From the UHGV virus genome UHGV-0349822: a stretch of 37,380 bases of DNA. One strand, written 5' to 3'. The DNA is from a virus. The position numbers and the translations under genes are program-made. Positions 1 through 20,978 of this stretch are shown here, in pieces (the stretch's first letter is position 1; every line of letters begins with the position of its first letter). The notes below the pieces were generated by a model. It ran no database searches. It was given only the letters and a program-made list of their open reading frames with translations, and was not told where the DNA came from.

Positions 1-185
1 TGCCAGCATCCTTTTTGTATCGGACGTAAACGGGCCAGCATTGAAAGAATGCATATTTTATTTAATAGCTCCCGTTCGTGTTTTCTCTTGTTAATGGCAT
101 CTTCAGTAAATACAGGGTTACTGATAGTGACACCAATTTCAAAACAACCTTCAGACGTATTAACGTTTGGTAATAACGTTTCCAT
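1..185 (-). CDS. hypothetical early-left protein, N-terminal part only (gene runs off the window start)
   Basis: Reverse-strand ATG at 185-183 preceded by GAGGA Shine-Dalgarno; frame stays open to position 1 (METLLPNVNTSEGCFEIGVTISNPVF...). Absent from the ORF track because there is no stop in the window. Confidence 0.4.
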   Translation of the reverse strand, partial: METLLPNVNTSEGCFEIGVTISNPVFTEDAINKRKHERELLNKICILSMLARLRPIQKGCW

Positions 186-717
186 TATCGCGTCCTCAAC
201 AATGAATTTTGTGATGCGGTGCCTGGTGCCTCCAGGTGACGTTAACCAGTTAACAATTAACGCCGGATACAGAGAATCCACCCATAACACTGTTTTTGGT
301 TTTAACTGTTCCGCGTGCGCTCAGCCGCATTCACCACATCACAAAATTCACTTTAAAAAGGGCGGCAGAGCAGTCACGGAGTAAAACTGATACCGCCAAA
401 CGTCACCAGAAAATTGATAACAGAGGGCGTTGCAGCGGGGTTGTCACTTAAGCGTATGGTCAACCTGACAACCCGGTGTCCTCAATGGGGGAAGGAATAA
501 CCCCGCCATACTTACCGCCGCGCCATTTCGCGGATTGCCACAACCGGAAGCGCACGGTCGACGAAAATTTAACGACAGGCTATCTATGAACCAGCTACCT
601 CGCTGTGCGCTTTCGCGTTATGGTCTGACTTTTCAGGGAAATATCCTTTCAGTAAACTGTCAGTGCCGGATGCTCACCCGTGTCCGGCGCACGCACTCCA
701 CCTCACCTGTGAATAAA

Positions 718-1104
718 TTAATGATTAATTGATATTTTGTTGTTTGATTCAACTTTCCCATCGGATGTGTGATGCTTTAAATCACAGGAATTAATACTGC
801 TTGCTGTAAAATGATTTTCAAGGGGAGCTATTCGAATCCCTTTCTTTTTCATTAACAAGCCAAATCCTTTATTAATGATGTCCATTAATTCCAGAAAGTA
901 TTTTTCATGTAAATCCTGGTTATCAGAGAGCTGCTTCTCTTCGTACAGCCCGATAAAGGCTCGGCGTACGTTACCGGATATATTGTCGATGGTTTCTTTT
1001 TCTACGGTACTCAGGTCAAGAGTCGCCAGTTGAGAGCGAACCACATTCGATGCCATTTCCTGGAATGGTACTGGTAAATCTTTAAATTCCATCGTCAACC
1101 TCAT
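718..1104 (-). CDS. hypothetical protein (128 aa), second gene of leftward early operon
   Basis: ORF in track; start overlaps the stop of the upstream gene (TGATG), indicating translational coupling. AT-rich, N/K/I-rich composition. Confidence 0.5.
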   Translation of the reverse strand: MRLTMEFKDLPVPFQEMASNVVRSQLATLDLSTVEKETIDNISGNVRRAFIGLYEEKQLSDNQDLHEKYFLELMDIINKGFGLLMKKKGIRIAPLENHFTASSINSCDLKHHTSDGKVESNNKISINH

Positions 1105-1349
1105 CAGTCAGTGTTTCTGGTTAACCAGCGACGCGCGCCAGCTTCAGTTTTAAACGTTTTGCTTCTGGTATACGTCATCGCGGTAAACGTACCGTCCTGG
1201 TTGGGGAACACGCCACATACCAGAGATTCGCTGTTGCCAAGATCGATAGTATCCATGCTGACCTCATTTCCCCTTAACGCCGGGGTAGCGGAACAAAAAC
1301 CTGCTGCATAGTTATTAAAGTTGAACCCTGCCGTCATGTTCTTACGCAT
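1104..1349 (-). CDS. hypothetical protein (81 aa), first gene of leftward early operon (sits at the N position but has no arginine-rich motif)
   Basis: ORF in track, immediately downstream of the left operator cluster and transcribed away from the repressor gene. Confidence 0.5.
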   Translation of the reverse strand: MRKNMTAGFNFNNYAAGFCSATPALRGNEVSMDTIDLGNSESLVCGVFPNQDGTFTAMTYTRSKTFKTEAGARRWLTRNTD

Positions 1350-1441
1350 CGGGCTGGCTACTTAACCCCTGACCACTGCCTGGTAACTCGAGGTATTGCC
1401 CTGTATTGTGTGGGACGGGATGGGTTGGTATGGGAAAACTA

Positions 1442-1480
1442 TAGGAAATGCCTAATTACTTGTCAATAGGCTATGCCTAA
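1442..1480. promoter_or_regulatory. left operator cluster (OL-like) with repressor-binding palindromes
   Basis: ATAGGCTATGCCTAA at 1466-1480 is the exact reverse complement of TTAGGCATAGCCTAT at 2105-2119 on the other side of the repressor gene; a TTAGGC/GCCTAA half-site family. Confidence 0.45.
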
Positions 1481-1574
1481 TAATTTGGGCGCGACCTAAT
1501 AGGTGATGGTTTGTGGGAGAGGTAGTAGGAGTTAACTAACGGGAACTAGGAATTTCCCGTCGGACCATATAAGT

Positions 1575-2051
1575 TTAAGTTCCTGTCTTGGTGATGTTCT
1601 GGCTTTTCCGTTTTGATTCTTGATTTTTCAGATAGTTAGCTACCTTCATTTCCATTGCGGCAATGTAGGCGCGAACGTCATGATCAACCCAACTAGGCTC
1701 CGTAGCATTTCCAGATAAGAGGAAAGCCACAATTGCTCTTTTTTCATCAGAGGCGGCTTGATAAAGGCTGTTTATGTCTAAAAGTTCACTTTTTGTATCT
1801 GAAGTGGATGGGGTTGGTATGGGGTATTCGTTAAGCCCCCAATGCTCTGGACCAACCACATCAGAAAAGAAACGCCATAGTTCTGGAAGTTTGTCTTTAC
1901 TTATCGAACCTTTCTTAATCCAGTCATGGATTGATGGTGGTTGGACTTTGAAATGACGTGCGATTTCCGCCTTTGATTTGACGGCTCCTGATGCAATTTT
2001 TTTGTTAATGGCCTGCTCAATCGCTCGGCCTAAGTCTTTACCACTAAGCAT
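1575..2051 (-). CDS. prophage repressor, helix-turn-helix (cI-like; RacR-like by size and context)
   Basis: 158 aa; N-terminal HTH-like segment (SKAEIARHFKVQPPSIHDWIKKG); divergent from a Cro-like gene and flanked by operator palindromes. Confidence 0.75.
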   Translation of the reverse strand: MLSGKDLGRAIEQAINKKIASGAVKSKAEIARHFKVQPPSIHDWIKKGSISKDKLPELWRFFSDVVGPEHWGLNEYPIPTPSTSDTKSELLDINSLYQAASDEKRAIVAFLLSGNATEPSWVDHDVRAYIAAMEMKVANYLKNQESKRKSQNITKTGT

Positions 2052-2077
2052 TGCTTAATAGTCTCCTATGCGCATCG

Positions 2078-2150
2078 CGTTAGGCAATCCCTACTCTCGA
2101 TGTATTAGGCATAGCCTATTGACAATTGCATTAGGCTAAGCCTAATATTG
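2078..2150. promoter_or_regulatory. right operator/promoter region (OR-like) between divergent repressor and cro-like genes
   Basis: Palindromes TTAGGCATAGCCTAT (2105-2119) and TTAGGCTAAGCCTAA (2131-2145) containing TTGACA-like hexamers; divergent gene arrangement. Confidence 0.5.
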
Positions 2151-2175
2151 TTGCGTGTTTTTTGGAATTCATTCG

Positions 2176-2499
2176 ATGAAAAAAGATAACTATTCATTCA
2201 AACGAGCTTGTGCTGTTGTCGGTGGGCAATCAGCAATGGCTAGGCTTTTAGGTGTATCTCCTCCAAGCGTAAATCAATGGATCAAAGGTGTACGTCAGTT
2301 GCCTGCTGAGAGATGTCCTGCGATTGAACGAGCAACAAAAGGTGGTGTCCTGTGTGAAGAACTTCGTCCTGATGTTGATTGGACATACTTACGACGCTCG
2401 TCATGTTATTCGCAGAATATGTCGATGAAGCAACCAAATGACGAAAACGATCATACCCGAAGCATCAAGAGGCAAATGATTCATGAAAATCAAACATGA
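2176..2499 (+). CDS. Cro/YdaS-like HTH regulator
   Basis: ORF in track (start taken at ATG 2176); HTH segment QSAMARLLGVSPPSVNQWIKG; first rightward gene from OR. Confidence 0.6.
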   Translation: MKKDNYSFKRACAVVGGQSAMARLLGVSPPSVNQWIKGVRQLPAERCPAIERATKGGVLCEELRPDVDWTYLRRSSCYSQNMSMKQPNDENDHTRSIKRQMIHENQT

Positions 2500-2908
2500 G
2501 CACATCCGCATGGCGATGAATGCTTGGGCATACCCTGATGGTGAGAAAGTTCCTGCAGCTGAAATAGCCCGGACTTATTTCGAACTGGGGATGACGTTCC
2601 CTGAACTGTACGACGACAGCCATCCGGAAGCCCTGGCCCGTAATACACAGAAAATTTTCCGTTGGCTGGATAAAGACACCCCTGATGCTGTTGAAAAAAT
2701 TCAGGCTCTGTTACCGGCGATCGAAAAGGCAATGCCGCCTCTGCTGGTGGCCCGTATGCGCAGTCACAGCTCTGAGTATTACCGGGAGATTGTCGAACGG
2801 CGGGATCGGCTGGTGAAGGATGTCGACGATTTTGTTGCGTCAGCGGTTGTTTTGTATGACCAGATGAATCGCGGCGGCCCGGCAGGGAATGCTGTGGTGA
2901 TGCACTAA
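2483..2908 (+). CDS. YdaT/CII-like regulatory protein
   Basis: 141 aa starting MKIKHEHI..., as remembered for the Rac prophage YdaT family; overlaps the upstream gene stop. Confidence 0.55.
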   Translation: MKIKHEHIRMAMNAWAYPDGEKVPAAEIARTYFELGMTFPELYDDSHPEALARNTQKIFRWLDKDTPDAVEKIQALLPAIEKAMPPLLVARMRSHSSEYYREIVERRDRLVKDVDDFVASAVVLYDQMNRGGPAGNAVVMH

Positions 2909-2930
2909 AAGCACGGTGTTCGGGGGTTTT

Positions 2931-3893
2931 ATGAGCAGCAAGCTTCATGGTCTTGTCTGGGAAGGGTGCGCCTTCACCGGCATGATCTTATCCAGGGTGG
3001 CGGTTATGGCCCGTCTTGCAGACTACAGCAATGACGAGGGCGTGTCATGGCCTGCCATTGAAACTATCCGGCGTCAGATCGGTGCAAGAAGTGAATCCAC
3101 AGTGAAATCGGCTATTGCAGAACTGGCGAAAGAGGGCTGGCTGACGAAGGAAGAGCGTAAGGTCGGTGGGCGTAATGTAAGCAATATCTATCGACTTAAT
3201 GTGGAAAAACTCGAAGCAGCTGCGGCGGCGGCGCGTGAGTCATATAAACCGAAAAGAAAAATTAGCCCGGCAAAAAATGACCCGTTAACAGTTGACCCGT
3301 CAAATATTGACCCCTCAACGGTTGACCCGTCAAATTTTGATGGATCAACTGTTGATAAAAAACTGCCGATTAGGGGGGCGATGATTGACCCCGATCCGTC
3401 AGTATTAAAACCTGATCCGTCAGATAAAAGATCTTCTTGTCCGGACGCTTCGCAACCGGACCCGCAGACGGCTGAACAGGATTTTTTAACCCGACACCCT
3501 GACGCGGTTGTGTTCAGTGCGAAAAAACGCCAGTGGGGAAGTCAGGAAGATTTGGTGTGCGCACAGTGGATCTGGGGACGAATCGTGAGTCTTTACGAGC
3601 AGGCGGCCAGCTATGATGGCGAGATCACTAGACCGAAAGAACCCAACTGGACAGCATGGGCCAATGACGTTCGCACAATGCGGATGCTGGATGGCAGAAC
3701 TCACAGACAAATTTGTGAAATGTTTGGGCGTCTCCAGCGGGATTCGTTCTGGGTAAAAAACATCATGAGTCCGGCAAAACTCCGGGAAAAATGGGATGAA
3801 CTGGTTATCCGCCTGGGGCGTTCGCCTGCGCAGCGTTGCGTGAATCACATTTCTGAACCGGACACTGAAATTCCGCCGGGCTTCAGGGGGTAA
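2931..3893 (+). CDS. replication initiator (lambda O-like N-terminal DNA-binding domain; linker encodes origin iterons)
   Basis: ORF in track; start chosen at ATG 2931 after a GGGGG Shine-Dalgarno; 5-aa periodic peptide (DPLTV DPSNI DPSTV DPSNF DGSTV) coincides with a 15-bp DNA repeat array. Confidence 0.7.
   Translation: MSSKLHGLVWEGCAFTGMILSRVAVMARLADYSNDEGVSWPAIETIRRQIGARSESTVKSAIAELAKEGWLTKEERKVGGRNVSNIYRLNVEKLEAAAAAARESYKPKRKISPAKNDPLTVDPSNIDPSTVDPSNFDGSTVDKKLPIRGAMIDPDPSVLKPDPSDKRSSCPDASQPDPQTAEQDFLTRHPDAVVFSAKKRQWGSQEDLVCAQWIWGRIVSLYEQAASYDGEITRPKEPNWTAWANDVRTMRMLDGRTHRQICEMFGRLQRDSFWVKNIMSPAKLREKWDELVIRLGRSPAQRCVNHISEPDTEIPPGFRG
3276..3425. repeat. origin-of-replication iteron array inside the initiator gene
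   Basis: Tandem 15-bp units, with GTTGACCCGTCAAAT exact at 3291-3305 and 3321-3335 plus variants (ATTGACCCCTCAACG, TGATCCGTCAG), followed by an AT-rich stretch at 3421-3437. Confidence 0.6.
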
Positions 3894-3933
3894 GTGTTAA
3901 TTTCTGGTCATGAGGTAATTTTCAGGAGGGCTT

Positions 3934-4356
3934 GTGGCAAAAGTTTTTACACAAGAAGAGCGGGAAAAAATTAAAGGGCAGGTTGTTGAACTCGTACGCC
4001 AGAGTGGGCGCGAGACGTTACGACAACTGGAAACTAAAACTGGGGCAACAAGATATCTGATGAGCGTTCTGGCCAGAGAGCTGGTTGCCAGCGGCGATGT
4101 ATACAACTCCGGCTACGGGTTATTCCCCTCTGAACAGGCGCGTAAGGACTGGCAAAACGCCCGCAAAAAACTCTCGAGGGCAAAGGTGAAGAAACCTGCT
4201 GTGGTTGATCCGGACCTTATCTGGTCATCACCTGACGGAGAAATACGTCGCTACGACAGTCGCCTAAACATAATCTGTCGCGAGTGCCGGAAGAGTGAAG
4301 CTATGCAGCGTGTACTGGCTTTCTATCAGGGTAATTTTCAGGAGGCGGTACTGTGA
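3934..4356 (+). CDS. hypothetical early protein (140 aa)
   Basis: ORF in track, GTG start after AGGAGG; flanked by a 16-bp direct repeat GGTAATTTTCAGGAGG (3914-3929 and 4329-4344). Confidence 0.5.
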   Translation: MAKVFTQEEREKIKGQVVELVRQSGRETLRQLETKTGATRYLMSVLARELVASGDVYNSGYGLFPSEQARKDWQNARKKLSRAKVKKPAVVDPDLIWSSPDGEIRRYDSRLNIICRECRKSEAMQRVLAFYQGNFQEAVL

Positions 4357-4413
4357 GTGAAATTAGCTATCAGGCTTCAATTACCGCTGGCATTCGCATC
4401 AAAGGAGAGGAGC

Positions 4414-4770
4414 ATGGAAATAAAACCAGAGGATGAGTTAAGCAATATCGTTTTATTTCCGGTAAAAGAGGATGACCCTCGTAATCAGGTTAATTTTCTT
4501 TATGAGCCATCGGAAAGACCATATTGTCATCACGCCTCTGTCCGGGTTGACGAAAAAGAGCGTCAGGTCCGCTGTAAAATCTGCGGTGCAGTTGTGGAGC
4601 CATTTGACTGGATGCTCTCTGTGGCGAAAAGAGAAACCAGACTGGCAGATGATGTAAGGCTCTTGCGTCAAGAGGAGCGGGAAAGGCGAAAAAATATAGA
4701 AAAGCTAATTCAGATTGAGCGTAACGCGAAAGCGCGGATACGCAGGGCGACAAAATCCAGAACTGAATAA
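4414..4770 (+). CDS. hypothetical protein with C-x2-H...C-x2-C zinc-ribbon-like motif and basic coiled-coil tail
   Basis: In-frame ATG at 4414 after a GGAGAGGAG Shine-Dalgarno within track ORF 4357-4770; motif PYCHH...CKICG. Confidence 0.5.
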   Translation: MEIKPEDELSNIVLFPVKEDDPRNQVNFLYEPSERPYCHHASVRVDEKERQVRCKICGAVVEPFDWMLSVAKRETRLADDVRLLRQEERERRKNIEKLIQIERNAKARIRRATKSRTE

Positions 4771-5046: not shown

Positions 5047-5215
5047 TTTTGGTTCAACTAAATACAACGTCAGTTTTGAAGAATGGCATGAACTGTTAAT
5101 GGACTATGCAGAGTTACGTGGTGGCAGTGCTGCTGATGCTGAAGCATGGCGTGATGATTATGAAGCAGGAAAAACTCCGGTCGAAGCATATTGTGATGAG
5201 TGGGGCGATGAATGA
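5039..5215 (+). CDS. small acidic protein (58 aa)
   Basis: ATG 5039 overlaps the upstream stop; translation MADFGSTKYNVSFEEWHELLMDYAELRGGSAADAEAWRDDYEAGKTPVEAYCDEWGDE; stop TGA at 5213-5215 overlaps the next ATG. Below the ORF-track length cutoff. Confidence 0.4.
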   Translation: MADFGSTKYNVSFEEWHELLMDYAELRGGSAADAEAWRDDYEAGKTPVEAYCDEWGDE

Positions 5216-5479
5216 GCGAGGTTAATTATCAGGAAGGGCATGAAACGGCGGGGCAAGCAAAAACAGTGGCATGGCGATATCGCTACGTGAAAAAAAAGGC
5301 GTTACGGACTTTCAGGGGAAGTAGTGGTCTGGTGACTGGAAATATGTACCGAAAAAAGAGGATTGTAACGACAGGCCGAACTATGAAATTCAGGCCTTAT
5401 TCACTGCCCCGCCAGTCCCGGTTACATCAGAAGAACTGGTTAAAGCTGTGCACTTTTATGAACAACTAAAACGCGAAAA
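5212..5479 (+). pseudogene. early gene of unknown function, interrupted by IS2 (3' remainder at 6816-6867) and also split across two frames
   Basis: Two overlapping frames (5212 frame and the frame of ...SGDWKYVPKKEDCNDRPNYEIQALF...VHFYEQLKREN) run into the IS2 end at 5480. Removing IS2 plus one target-duplication copy restores ...LKRENPPASGNLITDSQIRQ*. Confidence 0.4.
5475..5479. repeat. IS2 target-site duplication (GAAAA), copy 1
   Basis: GAAAA directly abuts the IS2 terminus at 5480; identical pentamer at 6811-6815. Confidence 0.8.
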
Positions 5480-5490
5480 TGGATTTGCCC

Positions 5491-6396
5491 CTATATTTCC
5501 AGACACCTGTTATCACTTAACCCATTACTGGCCTGCTGCCGCAGATATTCCCGTGGCGAGCGATAACCCAGTGCACTATGCGGATGCCATTCGTTATAAT
5601 GCTCGAACGCCTCTGCAAGGTTCTTTGCTGCCGTTAACCCGTCTGGTTTAGGCATGATACTGATGTAGTCACGCTTTATCGTTTTCACGAAGCTCTCTGC
5701 TATGCCGTTACTCTCCGGACTCCGCACCGCCGTGTTCTTCGGTTCAAGCCCCAACATCCGGGCAAACTGCCGTGTTTCATTAGCCCGGTAGCATGAACCA
5801 TTATCCGTCAGCCACTCTACTGGAGACGCCGGAAGCTCGTTGCCGAAGCGGCGTTCCACCGCTCCCAGCATGACGTCCTGTACTGTTTCACTGTCGAAGC
5901 CGCCCGTAGTGACTGCCCAGTGCAGTGCCTCACGGTCACAGCAGTCCAGCGCGAACGTGACTCGCAGTTTTTCTCCGTTATCACAGCGGAACTCGAACCC
6001 GTCAGAGCACCATCGTTGATTGCTTTCTTTCACGGCCACTTTGCCAGTATGTGCCCGTTTCGATGGCGGTACAGCGGTTTTTCGCTCAAGCAACAGCGCA
6101 TTCTGTCGCATGATCCGGTAAACACGTTTGGCATTGATCGCAGGCATACCATCAAGTTCGGCCTGTCTGCGAAGCAGCGCCCATACCCGACGATAACCAT
6201 ACGTGGGCAGCTCTCCGATAACATGGTGTATACGGAGAAGCACATCCGTATCATCTGAGTGACGGCTGCGGCGACCATCTTTCCAGTCATCGGTTCGTCT
6301 GAGAATTACGTGCAACTGCGCACGCGACACCCGGAGACAACGGCTGACTAAGCTTACTCCCCATCCCCGGGCAATAAGGGCGCGTGCGCTATCCAC
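5491..6396 (-). CDS. insD: IS2 transposase OrfB (InsD), DDE domain
   Basis: 301-aa ORF in track; recognised as the IS2 OrfB sequence. Confidence 0.9.
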
Positions 6397-6719
6397 TTTT
6401 TTGCACGCCCGTATTCAACGGCTTCTTTAAGGAGTTCATTTTCCATCGTTTTTTTGCCGAGCAGGCGCTGGAGTTCTTTAATCTGCTTCATGGCAGCAGC
6501 AAGTTCAGAGGCAGGAACGACCTGCTCTCCTGCGGCCACAGCAGTAAGACTTCCCTCCTGGTATTGCTTGCGCCAGAGAAATAACTGGCTGGCTGCCACA
6601 CCGTGTTGCCGGGCAACAAGGGAGACCGTCATTCCCGGTTCAAAACTCTGCTGAACAATAGCGATCTTTTCCTGTGTAGTACGCCGTCTGCGTTTCTCCG
6701 GTCCTAAGACATCAATCAT
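6354..6719 (-). CDS. insC: IS2 OrfA (InsC), HTH DNA-binding transposase component
   Basis: Track ORF 6354-6764 trimmed to the [13 protein letters not shown]... start (121 aa); overlaps insD as in the IS2 OrfA/OrfB frameshift arrangement. Confidence 0.9.
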
Positions 6720-6810
6720 CTGCTCTCCAATGACTAGTCTAAAAACTAGTATTAAGACTATCACTTATTTAAGTGATATTGGTTGTCTGGAGATTCAGGG
6801 GGCCAGTCTA

Positions 6811-7214: not shown

Positions 7215-7473
7215 ATACAGCGAACGCCATTGGTTTAGTTGGATATTTACTGTGCCGGACAAAAACGGTTTGCGGGGAAATCTTAGTTAAGTAGAATGAC
7301 TGCGGGTGCTTGAGGCTATCTGTCTCAGGCATGAACACCAAAAGGCAGATAGAGAAAAGCCCCAGTTAACATTACGCGTCCTGCAAGACGCTTAACATTA
7401 ATCTGAGGCCATATCTATGCTCTACACACGTAGGTTAGCCTCTTACGTGCCGAAAGGCAAGGAGAAGCAGGCT

Positions 7474-7629
7474 ATGAAGCAGCAAAAGGCGATGCTAATC
7501 GCCCTGATCGTCATCTGTTTAACCGTCATAGTGACGGCACTGGTAACGAGGAAAGACCTCTGCGAGGTACGAATCCGAACCGGCCAGACGGAGGTCGCTG
7601 TCTTCACAGCTTACGAACCTGAGGAGTAA
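7474..7629 (+). CDS. hok: Hok/Gef-family membrane toxin (51 aa)
   Basis: MKQQKAMLIALIVICLTVIVTALVTRKDLCEVRIRTGQTEVAVFTAYEPEE shows the Hok signature (TM helix, conserved C...EVR...EVA.F.AYE); AAGGAGAAG Shine-Dalgarno; in-frame upstream ATG at 7417. Confidence 0.8.
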   Translation: MKQQKAMLIALIVICLTVIVTALVTRKDLCEVRIRTGQTEVAVFTAYEPEE

Positions 7630-11843: not shown

Positions 11844-11919
11844 GGCCCTTTAGCTCAGTGGTGAGAGCGAGCGACTCATAATCGCCAGGTCGCTGGTTCA
11901 AATCCAGCAAGGGCCACCA
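11844..11919 (+). tRNA. tRNA with CAU anticodon (likely Ile2/ileZ-like, AUA-decoding after lysidine modification; could be Met)
   Basis: 76 nt; acceptor stem GGCCCTT/AAGGGCC, anticodon loop CUCAUAA, T-arm GGTTCAAATCC, 3' CCA. Confidence 0.8.
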
Positions 11920-12019: not shown

Positions 12020-12096
12020 GCGTTGTTAGCTCAGCCGGACAGAGCAATTGCCTTCTAAGCAATCGGTTACTGGTTCGAATCCAGTACAGCGCGCCA
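12020..12096 (+). tRNA. tRNA-Arg (anticodon UCU, AGA-decoding)
   Basis: 77 nt; acceptor GCGTTGT/ACAGCGC, anticodon loop CUUCUAA, T-arm GGTTCGAATCC, 3' CCA. Confidence 0.8.
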
Positions 12097-12560: not shown

Positions 12561-12951
12561 ATACATATCTGGATTATCACCGGTTACGGTAAAAAGTGAT
12601 TGCTTACTGTTTTTGTGAATGGCATTGCAGCAGCCGGATAATGTCAGTGCTGGCTGACGGTGTGCTGGTGGCGGGTGTGGTGGTTGCTGCTTTCCCGTTG
12701 CTGAAAAAGAAAACGCCAGACTGTTAGCCGGGTATCAGTTAGCGGGAGAAATTTTTAAATACTTCACAATTCAGGCGGTTGACTGTTGTCTGGTTTGCGG
12801 GGAGTTTGTTAAAAGAAACTGGCATGGTGAATCCCCCTGTGCGGAGGGGCAATCAGCGAGTAGGTATATGGGATAATCGCGGATTCAGGTGCTGGTACTG
12901 AATTCACCGGGAGGCACCCGGCACCATGCAATGGCACATAGCGCCACTCTC

Positions 12952-12980
12952 CAGCCCCTCTCCGGAGGGGCTGTTTATAT
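12952..12980 (+). terminator. intrinsic terminator
   Basis: 9-bp stem CAGCCCCTC/GAGGGGCTG with TCCG loop, followed by TTTATATTGATTTT. Confidence 0.45.
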
Positions 12981-13007
12981 TGATTTTGTCAGATGTGAGT
13001 AAACTCC

Positions 13008-17601: not shown

Positions 17602-18222
17602 ATGAAAGATCAAGATGTTAGGTTCGCGGTGCATCATAAGCTTTTGAAAGAATCGCATTTAGATCCAGACTGCCTTGTGGTCGATGAATTTTCCATATCC
17701 CTTGGCGCCAGTAGAGCAGACATTGCTGTAATAAATGGTGTTATACACGGGTACGAGCTCAAAAGTGAATATGACTCTTTGGAGCGTTTGCCTCTTCAAA
17801 TCAAGCATTATTCTTCTGTAATGGACAAGGTTACTCTTGTCGTAGCTGAGAAACATCTTGAGGGAGCATTAAAGTTAATCCCAGGTTGGTGGGGCGTTAA
17901 AACGGTTTCTGTTGGGCCAAAAGGCGCCATTCTTATAAAGCACATGCGTGGAGAAAAGCTTAATCGAAACCATGACACATTGATGCTCGCTCAATTGCTT
18001 TGGAAAGATGAATGTATCGACGTACTTGAACGATGGGGCTATTCCAAAGGAATCAAAAGCAAGCCCCGATTTGAGTTATGGAATATTATTGCGGAAAATA
18101 TTCCAATAGCGAATCTCAGGCTTGAAGTCAGAACAGCCTTAAAGAAACGCGTAGGCTGGAAAGTTAAGGCTTGGCAGGCTGAGTCTGCGCCAACCAATAA
18201 AGCTGTTTCACGACTAACGTAA
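17602..18222 (+). CDS. cargo protein A (206 aa) with PD-(D/E)xK-like motif (putative restriction-endonuclease-fold nuclease)
   Basis: AGGAGAAG Shine-Dalgarno; motif E29...D40-x11-E52-L-K54 (VVDEF...RADIAVINGVIHGYELK); AT-rich, with several ATA/AGA/AGG codons. Confidence 0.6.
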   Translation: MKDQDVRFAVHHKLLKESHLDPDCLVVDEFSISLGASRADIAVINGVIHGYELKSEYDSLERLPLQIKHYSSVMDKVTLVVAEKHLEGALKLIPGWWGVKTVSVGPKGAILIKHMRGEKLNRNHDTLMLAQLLWKDECIDVLERWGYSKGIKSKPRFELWNIIAENIPIANLRLEVRTALKKRVGWKVKAWQAESAPTNKAVSRLT

Positions 18223-19231
18223 TATGGTGCGTATGTGCAACTTTACGCCATTCTTTAGAGCCGCCAGATTTGTTAGCGCCTAATGATCTTTGGTAAATGT
18301 AATCATCCCCCCAACTAAATTTGGAACCAAAGACTTGATACTCTGGCGAACTAACAAGGGTAGTACATAAGTTTTTAGTTTGGCCCCATCCATTTCCTTT
18401 AACTGCGGTACCTTTTACAAAGATCCATGAGGTATCGTTCGAATATCTCACTGAGACATACTGAGACATGAAGCGTGGGTCTACGCTCGTAATGGTAGAG
18501 CTAGCGGTGGGATAATCACTAAAACTTGGCGTTCTTCCATTGCTAAAATTCTGTACTACGTGCATCCAAAGATCGTATTCATGGCGCGGAATATGATGAA
18601 CTTGATGTTGCGGTATCCCTGCCTGTGATGCTGGGTATGCGGTTGAAGATAAAATCAAGTTTCTCCACGGAGCTTGGCCTGATAATGTGTTGACCATGCT
18701 TAATGCTTGTTGTTTTAAACTATCAGTTGCGTTTTGAATATCTCCAAAATCAATGATTACATCAATTAAACTAGGATGAATATTTAAGTGGTTAACCAGA
18801 CTTGTGAATTGGTGCCATGTCTGGGGGGTGATAGATATAGCGAGCCCATTGATTAAGTTGCGTTGAACAGCATGTATATAGTTTGTTGAATATGCGGGAG
18901 AAACAACAGGGATAATTTCCTTACCATTTACTCTAGCATCTTGGATACACATATCTAGAGGATGATGGCGGCTCGAACCATGTTTATCTAAATATTTAAC
19001 ATCCAGCAAAACAGGACGATTGGCTTTCCAGGATGCCGCAAGGTTAATACCGAAGTCAGATAAGTAAGAACTCAAACTCTTCTTGTAGCATTCGTTTTCA
19101 TAATCCCAGTCTATGTCTGGAATGGTAATGATCGGAGTAAAACCAGAGAGCGTAGTTTGATCTAAAAGCATCAGAGATTCATATTCAGCAGGCTTCCATT
19201 TCAGCTGTGGATAATATTGATGTTGACTCAT
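18164..19231 (-). CDS. cargo protein B (355 aa), unknown function, convergent partner of protein A
   Basis: ORF in track with AAGGAG Shine-Dalgarno 7 nt upstream of ATG; AT-rich; 3' end overlaps protein A by 59 bp. Confidence 0.6.
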   Translation of the reverse strand: MSQHQYYPQLKWKPAEYESLMLLDQTTLSGFTPIITIPDIDWDYENECYKKSLSSYLSDFGINLAASWKANRPVLLDVKYLDKHGSSRHHPLDMCIQDARVNGKEIIPVVSPAYSTNYIHAVQRNLINGLAISITPQTWHQFTSLVNHLNIHPSLIDVIIDFGDIQNATDSLKQQALSMVNTLSGQAPWRNLILSSTAYPASQAGIPQHQVHHIPRHEYDLWMHVVQNFSNGRTPSFSDYPTASSTITSVDPRFMSQYVSVRYSNDTSWIFVKGTAVKGNGWGQTKNLCTTLVSSPEYQVFGSKFSWGDDYIYQRSLGANKSGGSKEWRKVAHTHHITLVVKQLYWLAQTQPAKP

Positions 19232-19641: not shown

Positions 19642-20190
19642 ATGAAGGTTAATAAAAAGAGGCTTGCCGAAATTTTTAACGTGGACCCGCGGACGATTGA
19701 ACGCTGGCAGTCTCAGGGGCTCCCTTGCGTCTCCAAAGGCAGTAAGGGCATTGAATCTGTATTTGATACTGCCATGGCAATTCAGTGGTATGCGCAGAGG
19801 GAAACTGATATCGAAAACGAAAAGCTCCGCAAAGAACTGGCCGATTTGCGTGCGGCAGCGGAGTCAGATTTACAACCCGGCACCATTGACTATGAACGCT
19901 ACCGGCTCACAAAAGCGCAGGCAGATGCGCAGGAACTGAAAAATGCCCGTGAAGACGGAGTGGTGCTGGAAACTGAACTGTTTACCTTTATTCTGCAACG
20001 TGTGGCACAGGAGATTTCGGGGATACTTGTGCGTGTGCCGTTGACATTACAGCGTAAATATCCGGACATTTCACCATCACACCTTGATGTGGTGAAAACT
20101 GAAATCGCGAAAGCCTCCAATGTTGCAGCTAAGGCCGGTGAAAACGTGGGCGGGTGGATCGATGATTTCAGACGCACAGAAGGCAGCTAA
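19642..20190 (+). CDS. nu1: terminase small subunit (lambda Nu1-like)
   Basis: [28 protein letters not shown]...[28 protein letters not shown]... closely parallels lambda gpNu1. Confidence 0.85.
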
Positions 20191-20978
20191 TGCAGCCGGT
20201 GCGATAGCTACAGGGCTTTTATCTCTCATTATTCCTGTTCCACTGACGACAGTTCAGTGGGCCAATAAACATTATTACCTTCCTAAAGAGTCGTCTTATA
20301 CCCCGGGGCGGTGGGAAACACTGCCGTTTCAGGTTGGCATCATGAACTGTATGGGCAACGATTTGATTCGCACTGTTAACCTGATTAAATCTGCCCGTGT
20401 TGGTTATACAAAGATGTTGCTGGGAGTGGAGGCTTATTTTATTGAGCGGGGGGATCGATGGCGAAATTGTCTATCAGAGGTCAAAAAAACACGGTGTTTT
20501 CCGGGTGCTGCCGGTAAAAGGTGCATCTGTTTATGGCAAGCCGGTGATCACCATGCCAAAAACCCGCAATCAGCGGGGCGTGTATCTGTGCGAAGTGGGG
20601 ACGGACACCGCAAAAGAAATTCTCTATGCCCGTATGAAAGCCGATCCCACGCCTGCGGATGAAGCCACGTCGTATGCCATCCGTTTTCCTGATGATCCGG
20701 AGATTTTTTCGCAGACAGAGGCGCAGCAACTGGTGGCGGAAGAGCTTGTGGAGAAGTGGGAAAAAGGAAAGATGCGTCTGCTGTGGGATAACAAAAAGCG
20801 GCGTAACGAAGCGCTGGACTGCCTGGTGTATGCCTACGCGGCATTACGTGTGTCCGTGCAACGCTGGCAGCTTGATCTGGCTGTACTGGCAAAATCCCGG
20901 GAAGAAGAGACGACCCGGCCAACCCTTAAAGAACTGGCAGCGAAGCTGTCCGGAGGAGTGAATGGTTACAGTCGCTGA
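20162..20978 (+). pseudogene. A: terminase large subunit (lambda gpA-like) with about 1.1 kb internal out-of-frame deletion
   Basis: N-terminal ~95 aa (to ...LGVEAYFIE, 20162-20446) and C-terminal ~175 aa (GGIDGEIVYQRSKKHG... to 20978) both match lambda gpA but lie in different frames. Nu1-to-W distance is ~0.77 kb versus ~1.9 kb in lambda. Confidence 0.8.

What the first reader, a model, noticed from the sequence alone, without database searches (positions are those of the whole stretch)
1575..2908. Rac-type immunity module: repressor held against potentially toxic YdaS/YdaT-like genes
The divergent 158-aa repressor, Cro/YdaS-like and YdaT-like (MKIKHEHI...) genes resemble the racR-ydaS-ydaT arrangement of the E. 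coli Rac prophage, where the repressor is essential because the two genes it represses are toxic. If that holds here, this defective prophage could act as an addiction module. The homology is recalled from memory, not verified.
Basis: partly seen in the sequence, partly recalled or inferred. Interest (0 to 1): 0.4.

Follow-up and report, generated by a model that had tools for sequence, protein, structure and literature searches.

The report
RacR-type prophage immunity switch
This is the ordinary on/off control region of a lambda-like prophage in E. coli (a RacR repressor facing Cro-like and CII-like regulators); it is already well studied and is not an addiction module.

Summary
The 158-aa repressor (1575-2051, minus strand) is 92% identical to K-12 RacR. 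The next gene (2176-2499) is 85% identical to YdaS. The third (2483-2908) belongs to the YdaT family, but it is only 31% identical to Rac YdaT and 95% identical to the crystallised YdaT of prophage CP-933P.

The module is a mosaic. Its exchange point lies just after a YdaT-box (2476-2493) that is identical to the K-12 one.

racR is flanked on both sides by RacR operators of the published type (TAGGC-N3-GCCTA, three per side). These overlap two near-consensus outward promoters, PL and PR. With the replication initiator gene that follows ydaT, this is a lambda-style cI/cro/cII/O immunity region.

Published experiments show that YdaS and YdaT are Cro and CII analogues, and that CP-933P YdaT is not toxic. 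They also show that the whole Rac prophage can be deleted and that its excision rescues RacR-depleted cells. The addiction-module reading is therefore not supported.

The prophage is indeed defective: it has a 1112-bp deletion in terL and an IS3 insertion. The same arrangement is found in about 530 complete E. coli genomes and is already annotated. It is already known and of low interest.

The parts
3..185 (-). dicB (cell-division inhibitor). It is the distal gene of the leftward operon and is cut by the window start.
   Evidence: Translation METLLPNVNTSEGCFEIG.... Annotated as dicB in genomes that are 100% identical here.
360..411 (-). DicF small RNA, upstream of dicB in the leftward operon.
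   Evidence: Rfam RF00039, 76.7 bits against a gathering score of 48.
718..1349 (-). The first two genes downstream of PL: a DUF1391 protein (1104-1349, or 1104-1256 as annotated) and a 128-aa protein of unknown function (718-1104).
   Evidence: Pfam PF07151, E=7e-27. PHROGs families of unknown function. RefSeq annotation.
1438..1466 (-). PL: a leftward sigma-70 promoter, TTGACA-17 nt-TATAGT, matching 11 of 12 consensus positions.
   Evidence: Promoter scan. Conserved in K-12 Rac (alignment).
1441..1499 (.). OL: three RacR-type operator candidates at 1441-1455, 1466-1480 and 1485-1499. The first two overlap PL.
   Evidence: Pattern TTAGGCNNNGCCTAA with up to 2 mismatches gives 7 hits against 1.05 expected; 6 of the 7 flank racR. 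The exact TAGGC-N3-GCCTA core occurs at 1467-1479. The published consensus is (T/A)TAGGC-n3-GCCTA(T/A) (PMC9638921).
1539..1560 (-). Hairpin just downstream of the racR stop codon, with no U-tract. Also present in K-12. It may be a weak terminator.
   Evidence: Folds (z-score only -1.8). The terminator scan found no site.
1575..2051 (-). racR: the prophage repressor (CI analogue), 158 aa.
   Evidence: No Pfam, PHROGs or PDB match, and so no S24 peptidase domain hit.
2044..2058 (.). Operator 'O3' of the K-12 literature, overlapping the racR start codon (CTAAGCATTGCTTAA).
   Evidence: Identical core to the K-12 sequence ACTAAGCATTGCTTAAT. Footprinted in PMC9638921. Three mismatches to the consensus.
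2080..2145 (.). OR: three RacR operator candidates at 2080-2094, 2105-2119 and 2131-2145. The last two overlap the -35 box and the spacer of PR.
   Evidence: A 23-nt perfect inverted repeat, 1460-1482 against 2103-2125, joins OL/PL to OR/PR.
2119..2148 (+). PR (the PydaST promoter): TTGACA ... TAATAT.
   Evidence: Promoter scan. The same boxes were mapped experimentally in K-12 (PMC9638921).
2176..2499 (+). ydaS: Cro analogue, 107 aa. It is 9 aa longer than K-12 YdaS, and its 3' end overlaps ydaT by 17 nt.
   Evidence: Matches solved Cro structures (3bd1, E=2.8e-10). PHROGs phrog_35, transcription regulation. Alignment.
2266..2298 (-). Counterpart of the reverse promoter PracR4 (PRE analogue) inside ydaS. 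The -10 box TACGCT is kept. The -35 box is CTGACG here and TTGACG in K-12.
   Evidence: Read from the sequence and the alignment. The boxes are named in PMC11879457. Promoter activity was not tested here.
2476..2493 (.). YdaT-box ATGATTCATGAAAATCAA, spanning the ydaT start codon.
   Evidence: It is the only match in the window, and it is exact: 18 of 18 identical to the footprinted K-12 box (PMC11879457). One mismatch to the CP-933P site TTGATT-N6-AATCAA (PMC9986795).
2483..2908 (+). ydaT: CII analogue of the CP-933P lineage, 141 aa. Arg60 and Trp61 of the recognition helix are present.
   Evidence: PHROGs phrog_163 'CII-like transcriptional activator', E=2e-47.
2494..2510 (.). Mosaic junction. 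Rac-like DNA (87% identical to K-12) ends here and CP-933P-like DNA begins.
   Evidence: Megablast hit boundaries: K-12-type hits end at query 1107 (window 2506), and ydaT-only hits start at query 1076-1079. In the alignment, similarity collapses after ...CATGAGCACATC.
2931..3893 (+). O-like replication initiator gene, with an internal iteron array (15-nt period, 3257-3355). It completes the cI-cro-cII-O gene order.
   Evidence: PHROGs phrog_391, E=2e-115. Pfam HTH_36. Tandem repeats.

Best explanation
The region is the immunity (lysis/lysogeny switch) region of a defective lambda-like prophage of E. coli, inserted next to ompW.

Proposed mechanism:
- RacR is the CI analogue. It binds TAGGC-N3-GCCTA operators on both sides of its own gene and shuts two strong outward promoters.
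- PR drives ydaS (Cro analogue), ydaT (CII analogue) and the O-like replication gene.
- PL drives a leftward operon that ends in the division inhibitors DicF and DicB. In the closest genomes this operon continues into exonuclease, xis and int.
- If RacR falls, YdaS takes over the switch. YdaT binds the YdaT-box at its own start codon and activates a reverse promoter inside ydaS, which re-supplies RacR.

The module is a natural chimera: Rac-type racR, ydaS and YdaT-box, joined to a CP-933P-type ydaT.

What is shown here: gene identities, operator and promoter sequences, the mosaic junction, and the distribution among genomes. What is inferred from published K-12 and CP-933P experiments: binding, repression and activation. 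It is not a toxin-antitoxin or addiction module. At most, the repressor is conditionally essential while the prophage it silences is still present.
For: Gene identities.

Independent functional labels: PHROGs calls ydaT 'CII-like transcriptional activator' and the next gene 'replication initiation O-like'. YdaS matches solved Cro structures.

Operators: six of the seven window-wide matches to the RacR consensus flank racR, against 1.05 expected for the whole window. The exact palindrome core occurs only there.

Promoters: PL and PR are the only two promoter-like sites in 1000-3200, and both overlap operators. A 23-nt perfect inverted repeat links them.

Other sequence evidence: the YdaT-box is identical to the footprinted K-12 box. 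DicF and dicB lie downstream of PL. A sequenced phage record, vB_EcoS-683R6, carries an 87% identical RacR-type region.

Literature:
- RacR footprints and the operator consensus (PMC9638921).
- YdaT-box, PracR4 activation, and Rac/CP-933P YdaT cross-activation of the Rac box (PMC11879457).
- YdaS and YdaT as Cro and CII analogues, and bistability (PMC8630535).
- YdaT structure and its DNA site (PMC9986795).
- Leftward Rac genes rise 40-70-fold when RacR is low (PMC11014345).
Against: No binding or expression data exist for this particular allele set.

The -35 box of the PracR4 counterpart carries a T-to-C change (CTGACG), so YdaT-dependent re-supply of RacR may be weaker or lost.

CP-933P YdaT was reported not to bind the repressor-ydaS intergenic region in its own prophage (PMC11879457), so part of the Rac circuit may be missing here.

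In K-12, YdaS did not repress racR as lambda Cro represses cI (PMC9638921), so the lambda analogy is imperfect.

No N-like antiterminator was identified. The IS3 insertion may uncouple PR from the late genes.
Confidence: 0.88

Rival explanations
1. This is a toxin-repressor addiction module: RacR is held against two toxic proteins, YdaS and YdaT, so the host cannot lose the element.
For: In K-12, racR could be deleted only in a ydaS-ydaT deletion background, and ydaS or ydaS-ydaT expression was lethal (PMC5700373, PMC5700377). Rac YdaT is toxic through rcsA (PMC11014345, PMC11879457).

Here, all 1086 E. coli genomes with a racR match carry at least 80% of the gene. Full-length Rac-type ydaS is present in 1085 genomes. 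One genome keeps racR after deletion of ydaS-ydaT. No racR-less full ydaS class appeared in the sampled rows. These are counts only; the genome lists were not intersected.
Against: The entire Rac prophage can be deleted (PMC5700373). Excision rescues RacR-depleted cells (PMC11014345; bioRxiv 10.64898/2026.09.06.749655). This is the opposite of addiction.

The supposed toxins are transcriptionally silent, so none would persist after loss of the element.

The ydaT here is the CP-933P type (95% identical), for which no toxicity was detected (PMC8630535). YdaS alone was not toxic in PMC11014345.

This ydaT type occurs in 1873 genomes, up to 6 copies per genome, mostly beside other repressors. It is therefore not specifically paired with RacR.

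The co-occurrence of racR and ydaS is equally what is expected of an immunity module inherited as a unit.
Confidence: 0.05
2. The repressor is conditionally essential, but the lethal cargo is not ydaS or ydaT. It is the other genes RacR silences: DicF and DicB through PL, in-situ replication from the O-like gene and its iterons, and possibly the lysis genes.
For: PL with its operators points at DUF1391, a 128-aa gene, DicF and dicB. DicB and DicF are established cell-division inhibitors; this rests on general knowledge and on the product names. The CP-933P-type YdaT is non-toxic (PMC8630535). The O-like gene with iterons follows ydaT.
Against: No transcription data were obtained. No terminators or processing sites between PL and dicB were examined beyond a simple scan, which covered only 1000-3200. 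The IS3 insertion at about 5480-6720 probably blocks read-through to Q and the lysis genes. In K-12, a kilR deletion did not appear to explain racR essentiality; the authors attributed essentiality to ydaS-ydaT instead (PMC5700373).
Confidence: 0.3
3. YdaS and YdaT form a classical type II antitoxin-toxin pair, as the Pfam names ('YdaS_toxin', 'YdaT_toxin') and the RefSeq product names suggest.
For: Only the family names and the original RASTA-Bacteria prediction cited in PMC5917428.
Against: No experimental support was found in the 2010 study cited in PMC5917428 and PMC9986795. PMC5700373 and PMC8630535 both conclude that the two are not a toxin-antitoxin pair. YdaT is a tetrameric POU-like DNA-binding protein (PMC9986795). 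PADLOC gave no hit.
Confidence: 0.02

Closest known systems
racR-ydaS-ydaT immunity region of the E. coli K-12 Rac prophage
   Same: Divergent gene order. RacR is 92% and YdaS 85% identical. The intergenic region is about 90% identical, with the same PR boxes and the same operators (including the site over the racR ATG). The OL/PL region is the same and the YdaT-box is identical.
   Different: ydaT is only 31% identical. YdaS is 9 aa longer and overlaps ydaT. The -35 box of the PracR4 counterpart is CTGACG. The prophage sits at ompW, whereas Rac integrates at ttcA (PMC11014345). The leftward operon carries DicF and dicB where K-12 has kilR and recET, and the replication genes differ.
ydaS-ydaT part of the paaR2 immunity region of cryptic prophage CP-933P (E. 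coli O157:H7)
   Same: YdaT is 95% identical to the crystallised protein 8bt1. Its binding site lies at the end of ydaS and the start of ydaT, and an O-type gene follows (PMC9986795, PMC8630535).
   Different: The repressor is RacR, not PaaR2, and there is no paaA2-parE2 toxin-antitoxin pair beside it. YdaS is the Rac type; PMC8630535 reports CP-933P YdaS as 26% identical to Rac YdaS. The box has A instead of T at its first base.
Bacteriophage lambda immunity region (cI, cro, cII, OL/PL, OR/PR, PRE, O with ori iterons)
   Same: Same gene order and logic. The repressor gene lies between two tripartite operator sets that overlap outward promoters. It is followed by a Cro-like gene, a CII-like gene and then a replication initiator with internal iterons.
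   Different: RacR has no detectable sequence similarity to CI and no S24 peptidase domain hit. No N or cIII gene was identified. In K-12, YdaS did not repress racR, and PracR4 lies about 190 bp from the activator site (PMC9638921, PMC11879457).

Membership tests
RacR repressor (NCBIfam NF049929, equivalog) | Whole-protein score above the curated cut-off, with full-length alignment. | tested here: met
   246.8 bits against a cut-off of 200, covering residues 1-145 of 158. 92% identical to K-12 RacR over 158 aa.
RacR repressor (NCBIfam NF049929, equivalog) | Cognate operators (T/A)TAGGC-n3-GCCTA(T/A) in the racR-ydaS intergenic region. | tested here: met
   Sites at 2080-2094, 2105-2119 and 2131-2145, plus 2044-2058 over the ATG, and three more sites at 1441-1499. 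This is 7 hits against 1.05 expected. Binding itself was not tested.
YdaS / Cro-like HTH (Pfam PF15943) | Score above the gathering threshold. First gene of the rightward operon, divergent from the repressor. | tested here: met
   103.9 bits against 30. 85% identical to K-12 YdaS. Matches Cro structure 3bd1, E=2.8e-10. Position confirmed.
YdaT / CII analogue (Pfam PF06254) | Score above the gathering threshold. | tested here: met
   42.6 bits against 21.
YdaT / CII analogue (Pfam PF06254) | Conserved Arg in the recognition helix (Arg60 in CP-933P YdaT, Arg57 in Rac YdaT), followed by Trp. | tested here: met
   The sequence ...QKIFRWLDK places R60 and W61. The requirement is stated in PMC9986795 and PMC11879457.
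YdaT / CII analogue (Pfam PF06254) | Cognate inverted repeat TTGATT-N6-AATCAA at the ydaS/ydaT boundary. | tested here: met
   ATGATTCATGAAAATCAA at 2476-2493. It is the only hit in the window with 1 mismatch or fewer, and it is identical to the K-12 box.
Lambdoid immunity region | Repressor gene bracketed by operator sets that overlap divergent early promoters PL and PR. | tested here: met
Lambdoid immunity region | Gene order repressor / cro / cII / replication initiator. | tested here: met
Lambdoid immunity region | RecA-stimulated self-cleaving repressor (S24 peptidase domain). | tested here: not met
   RacR gave no Pfam hit of any kind. This feature is not universal among lambdoid repressors; PaaR2 also lacks it (PMC8630535).
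Type II toxin-antitoxin / addiction module | Toxin and antitoxin co-transcribed, with the antitoxin neutralising the toxin protein. | tested here: not met
   racR is divergent from ydaS-ydaT and acts on promoters. Repression alone is sufficient in K-12 (PMC5700373).
Type II toxin-antitoxin / addiction module | Loss of the element kills the cell (post-segregational killing). | not testable with these tools
   For the K-12 archetype the opposite holds: the rac deletion strain is viable and excision rescues (PMC5700373, PMC11014345; bioRxiv 10.64898/2026.09.06.749655).
Type II toxin-antitoxin / addiction module | An intrinsically toxic protein product. | not testable with these tools
   The CP-933P YdaT, 95% identical to this one, showed no toxicity (PMC8630535). 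Reports on YdaS toxicity conflict (PMC5700373 against PMC11014345).
Known anti-phage defence systems (PADLOC) | A profile hit for any of the three proteins. | tested here: not met
   No families for RacR, YdaS or YdaT.

The most novel reading that the evidence does not exclude
Mosaic exchange has re-wired a Rac-type switch. RacR now guards a Qin-like DicF/DicB division-inhibitor operon on its left, and on its right a non-toxic CP-933P-type CII analogue in place of the toxic Rac YdaT. Any essentiality of racR in this strain would then come from DicB/DicF or from in-situ replication, not from ydaS-ydaT. The exchange point sits immediately after the shared YdaT-box and the first 8 codons. That conserved regulatory site may therefore double as the recombination linker that lets CII and replication modules swap between immunity types.
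Probability: 0.3. Interest if true: 0.25.

Novelty: already known. Interest (0 to 1): 0.1.

Why it matters
It matters little beyond correct annotation. The Pfam and RefSeq 'toxin' names for YdaS and YdaT invite a toxin-antitoxin or addiction reading that the experimental literature has largely overturned. This locus is a clean example of why genetic context (operators, promoters, cI-cro-cII-O order) should override those names.

The natural chimera does offer one modest experiment. It pairs Rac-type RacR and YdaS with the non-toxic CP-933P-type YdaT. Testing racR essentiality in such a strain would show whether RacR essentiality in E. coli depends on YdaT toxicity or on general prophage derepression.

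Tried and rejected
- Pfam, PHROGs, PADLOC and PDB sequence searches with RacR found no domain or structural relative. The best PDB E-values were 0.6-1.5. Nothing can therefore be said here about its fold or about how it is inactivated.
- PADLOC gave no hits for YdaS or YdaT, so a defence-system reading was dropped.
- The intrinsic-terminator scan of 1000-3200 found none. The hairpin after racR is conserved in K-12 but is not statistically unusual (z-scores -1.8 and -0.8).
- I searched for further YdaT sites (TTGATT-N6-AATCAA, up to 3 mismatches). Only the box at 2476-2493 stands out, and the total of 20 hits equals chance. The weak YdaT 'operators' reported in the K-12 intergenic region have no recognisable motif and could not be assessed.
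- The direct repeat GGGTTGGTATGGG (1422-1434 and 1811-1823) was considered as a regulatory element. With only two short copies, one inside racR, I treated it as probable chance.
I used megablast against the E. coli collection and ORF lists instead.
- The classical YdaS/YdaT toxin-antitoxin reading was considered and rejected on published evidence.
Full report
**1. The observation**

The ORF list and the sequence show a 158-aa ORF at 1575-2051 on the minus strand. A divergent HTH ORF on the plus strand ends at 2499. Its biologically supported ATG is at 2176, as in K-12 YdaS and in RefSeq annotation. A 141-aa ORF beginning MKIKHEHI lies at 2483-2908. The coordinates and descriptions in the finding are correct.

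**2.

- RacR: the repressor passes the NCBIfam equivalog model for RacR (246.8 bits, cut-off 200). It is 92% identical to K-12 RacR over all 158 residues.
- YdaS: the second protein passes Pfam PF15943 (E=3.8e-30) and is 85% identical to K-12 YdaS.
- YdaT: the third protein passes Pfam PF06254 (42.6 bits against 21), but it is only 31% identical to K-12 YdaT. It is 95% identical to the crystallised YdaT of the O157:H7 cryptic prophage CP-933P, PDB 8bt1.

**3. The module is a mosaic**

- DNA from 1406 to about 2506 is 87% identical to K-12 Rac. The similarity stops within the first codons of ydaT.
- From about 2475 rightwards the DNA matches a ydaT type that occurs beside many different repressor/cro pairs.
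- The overlap of the two similarity blocks is the 18-nt inverted repeat ATGATTCATGAAAATCAA (2476-2493) plus the first 8 codons. This repeat is base-for-base the 'YdaT-box' footprinted in K-12 (PMC11879457). It differs at one base from the CP-933P YdaT site TTGATT-N6-AATCAA (PMC9986795).
- The same paper showed that Rac and CP-933P YdaT cross-activate the Rac box. The natural chimera is therefore expected to work. This is an inference.

**4. Regulatory anatomy**

- Operators: the published RacR operator is (T/A)TAGGC-n3-GCCTA(T/A) (PMC9638921). The exact core TAGGC-N3-GCCTA occurs three times in 37 kb, at 1467, 2106 and 2132, against 0.07 expected.
- Allowing two mismatches to TTAGGCNNNGCCTAA gives seven hits against 1.05 expected. 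Six of them flank racR: 1441-1455, 1466-1480 and 1485-1499 on the left, and 2080-2094, 2105-2119 and 2131-2145 on the right.
- The K-12 'O3' site over the racR start codon is also conserved, at 2044-2058.
- Promoters: the only two sigma-70-like promoters found in 1000-3200 are outward-facing and overlap these sites. PR is TTGACA...TAATAT at 2119-2148, the boxes mapped experimentally in K-12. PL is a leftward TTGACA-17-TATAGT at 1466-1438.
- A 23-nt perfect inverted repeat (1460-1482 and 2103-2125) shows that the same operator-plus-minus-35 unit is used on both sides.
- All of this is conserved in K-12 Rac.

**5. Surroundings**

- To the right of ydaT lies an O-like replication initiator (PHROGs phrog_391, E=2e-115) with an internal 15-nt iteron array at 3257-3355. 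A DUF977 / Ren-like gene follows.
- PHROGs labels the ydaT product 'CII-like transcriptional activator'. YdaS matches solved Cro proteins.
- To the left, PL reads into a DUF1391 gene, a 128-aa gene, the DicF sRNA (360-411; Rfam 76.7 bits) and dicB (3-185).
- In the closest genomes, ydfD, an exonuclease, xis and int follow, next to ompW.
- The layout is therefore lambda's: PL/OL, repressor, OR/PR, cro, cII, O. It carries a Qin-like dicF-dicB cargo on the left arm.

**6. How it most likely works**

Shown here are the gene identities, the operator and promoter sequences and their placement, the YdaT-box, and the mosaic junction.

Inferred from published experiments on the 92%/85% identical K-12 proteins and the 95% identical CP-933P YdaT:
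- RacR binds the operators and silences PR, and by the same logic PL (PMC9638921). Leftward Rac genes rise 40-70-fold when RacR is low (PMC11014345).
- YdaS acts as the Cro-like counter-regulator and promotes excision (PMC11014345, PMC8630535).
- YdaT is a tetrameric POU-like DNA binder. It activates a reverse, PRE-like promoter to raise repressor synthesis (PMC9986795, PMC11879457).
- In this window the counterpart of that reverse promoter keeps its -10 box (TACGCT, 2266-2271) but has CTGACG instead of TTGACG at the -35 box (2293-2298). Its strength here is unknown.
- RacR has no Pfam hit, and so no S24 peptidase hit. That argues against RecA-stimulated self-cleavage of the kind seen in lambda CI.

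**7. The 'toxic genes / addiction module' interpretation**

The K-12 basis is real. racR could be deleted only together with ydaS-ydaT (PMC5700373, PMC5700377). The interpretation does not transfer, for four reasons.

(a) Jobling argued that YdaS and YdaT are Cro and CII analogues whose ectopic expression is harmful, as cII overexpression is. [quoted passage not shown] Later work confirmed the regulatory roles (PMC8630535, PMC9986795, PMC11879457).

(b) The YdaT toxicity traced to rcsA activation concerns the Rac allele. YdaS alone was not toxic in that study (PMC11014345). The CP-933P allele, 95% identical to the one here, showed no toxicity (PMC8630535).

(c) Addiction requires that loss of the element kills. 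The whole Rac prophage can be deleted (PMC5700373), and its excision is how RacR-depleted cells recover (PMC11014345; bioRxiv 10.64898/2026.09.06.749655). Because the supposed toxins are transcriptionally silent, nothing toxic would remain after loss.

(d) The CP-933P-type ydaT is found in 1873 of 5426 complete E. coli genomes, at up to six copies per genome. racR is found in 1086. This ydaT type is therefore mostly kept beside other repressors.

**8. A natural-variation check**

- racR is present in 1086 genomes, always with at least 80% of its length. All 60 sampled rows are annotated as racR.
- Rac-type ydaS is present at full length in 1085 genomes and as fragments in 5 more.
- One genome (PSS-07) keeps racR while ydaS, ydaT, ydaU and part of ydaV are deleted.
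- This is compatible with racR being needed while the rightward operon is intact. It is equally what is expected of an immunity module inherited or lost as a unit.
- The genome lists could not be intersected, and pseudogene flags are not shown in the hit tables.

**9. Is the prophage defective?**

Yes. The window is 100% identical to several complete genomes except for a 1112-bp deletion inside the large terminase gene, with the junction at window 20447/20448. The deletion splits a 656-aa ORF into two out-of-frame pieces. An IS3 element at about 5480-6720 interrupts the early-right region between the replication genes and hokD / Q. In the closest genomes int and xis are intact to the left of the window, so escape by excision is plausible here as well.

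**10. Novelty**

About 530 complete E. coli genomes hold at least 80% of the 1400-3100 stretch, including many O157:H7 strains. PGAP already annotates racR and the 'toxin YdaT family protein'. The regulatory logic has been dissected in at least eight papers.

Two small points are not stated in the literature I read. First, this allele set is a Rac/CP-933P chimera joined at the YdaT-box. Second, RacR's PL here heads a dicF-dicB operon.

Verdict: already known, low interest.

Noticed in passing
window 20120-20978 (junction 20447/20448): The large terminase gene carries a 1112-bp out-of-frame internal deletion relative to otherwise 100% identical genomes. The 656-aa ORF is split into 180-aa and 193-aa pieces. 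All eight top-ranked complete genomes listed have the intact gene.
   Followed up: yes
window about 5480-6720 (transposase ORF 5491-6396, minus strand): An IS3-family element is inserted in the early-right region, truncating a hypothetical gene (5212-5469). It lies between the replication genes and hokD / Q, so it is probably polar on late-gene expression from PR.
   Followed up: partly
window 360-411 (-) and 3-185 (-): DicF sRNA (Rfam 76.7 bits) and dicB lie downstream of the RacR-controlled PL. A Qin-type division-inhibitor operon is therefore under a Rac-type repressor.
   Followed up: partly
window 3257-3355: An array of five to six 15-nt iterons lies inside the O-like replication gene. 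It is also visible as the repeated peptide DPSTVDPSN. This is a probable prophage origin of replication.
   Followed up: partly
window 7304-7479 (+): A Sok antisense RNA match (Rfam 117 bits) lies next to the gene annotated hokD in the near-identical genomes. This is a type I toxin-antitoxin locus and a more conventional 'addiction' candidate than racR/ydaS-ydaT.
   Followed up: no
window 17602-18222 (+) and 18164-19231 (-): Two convergent, overlapping genes lie between the lysis cassette and the terminase. RefSeq calls them 'sce7726 family' and 'beta family'. They match PADLOC models cll, beta and PD-Lambda-2_C (E down to 3e-32), so this is a likely anti-phage defence moron in a known lambdoid hotspot.
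   Followed up: partly
window 11844-11916, 12020-12093, 12793-12982: Two tRNA genes (annotated Ile and Arg in the near-identical genomes) and an STnc100 sRNA match (132 bits) lie downstream of the Q / DNA-methyltransferase region.
   Followed up: no
window 1422-1434 and 1811-1823: An exact 13-nt direct repeat, GGGTTGGTATGGG, has one copy just outside PL and one inside the racR coding sequence. It is probably chance and remains unexplained.
   Followed up: no
window 2433-2499 compared with L001 7030-7090: Relative to K-12, ydaS has a 12-nt deletion and has lost the K-12 TGA stop (T-to-C change). The protein is 107 aa instead of 98, and the gene reads through the YdaT-box and overlaps ydaT by 17 nt. 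Translational coupling of the two genes is possible.
   Followed up: partly
L005 (E. coli PSS-07) 3401-4480: This is a Rac prophage in which ydaS (after codon 22), ydaT, ydaU and the 5' part of ydaV are deleted while racR is intact. It is a natural repressor-only remnant.
   Followed up: partly
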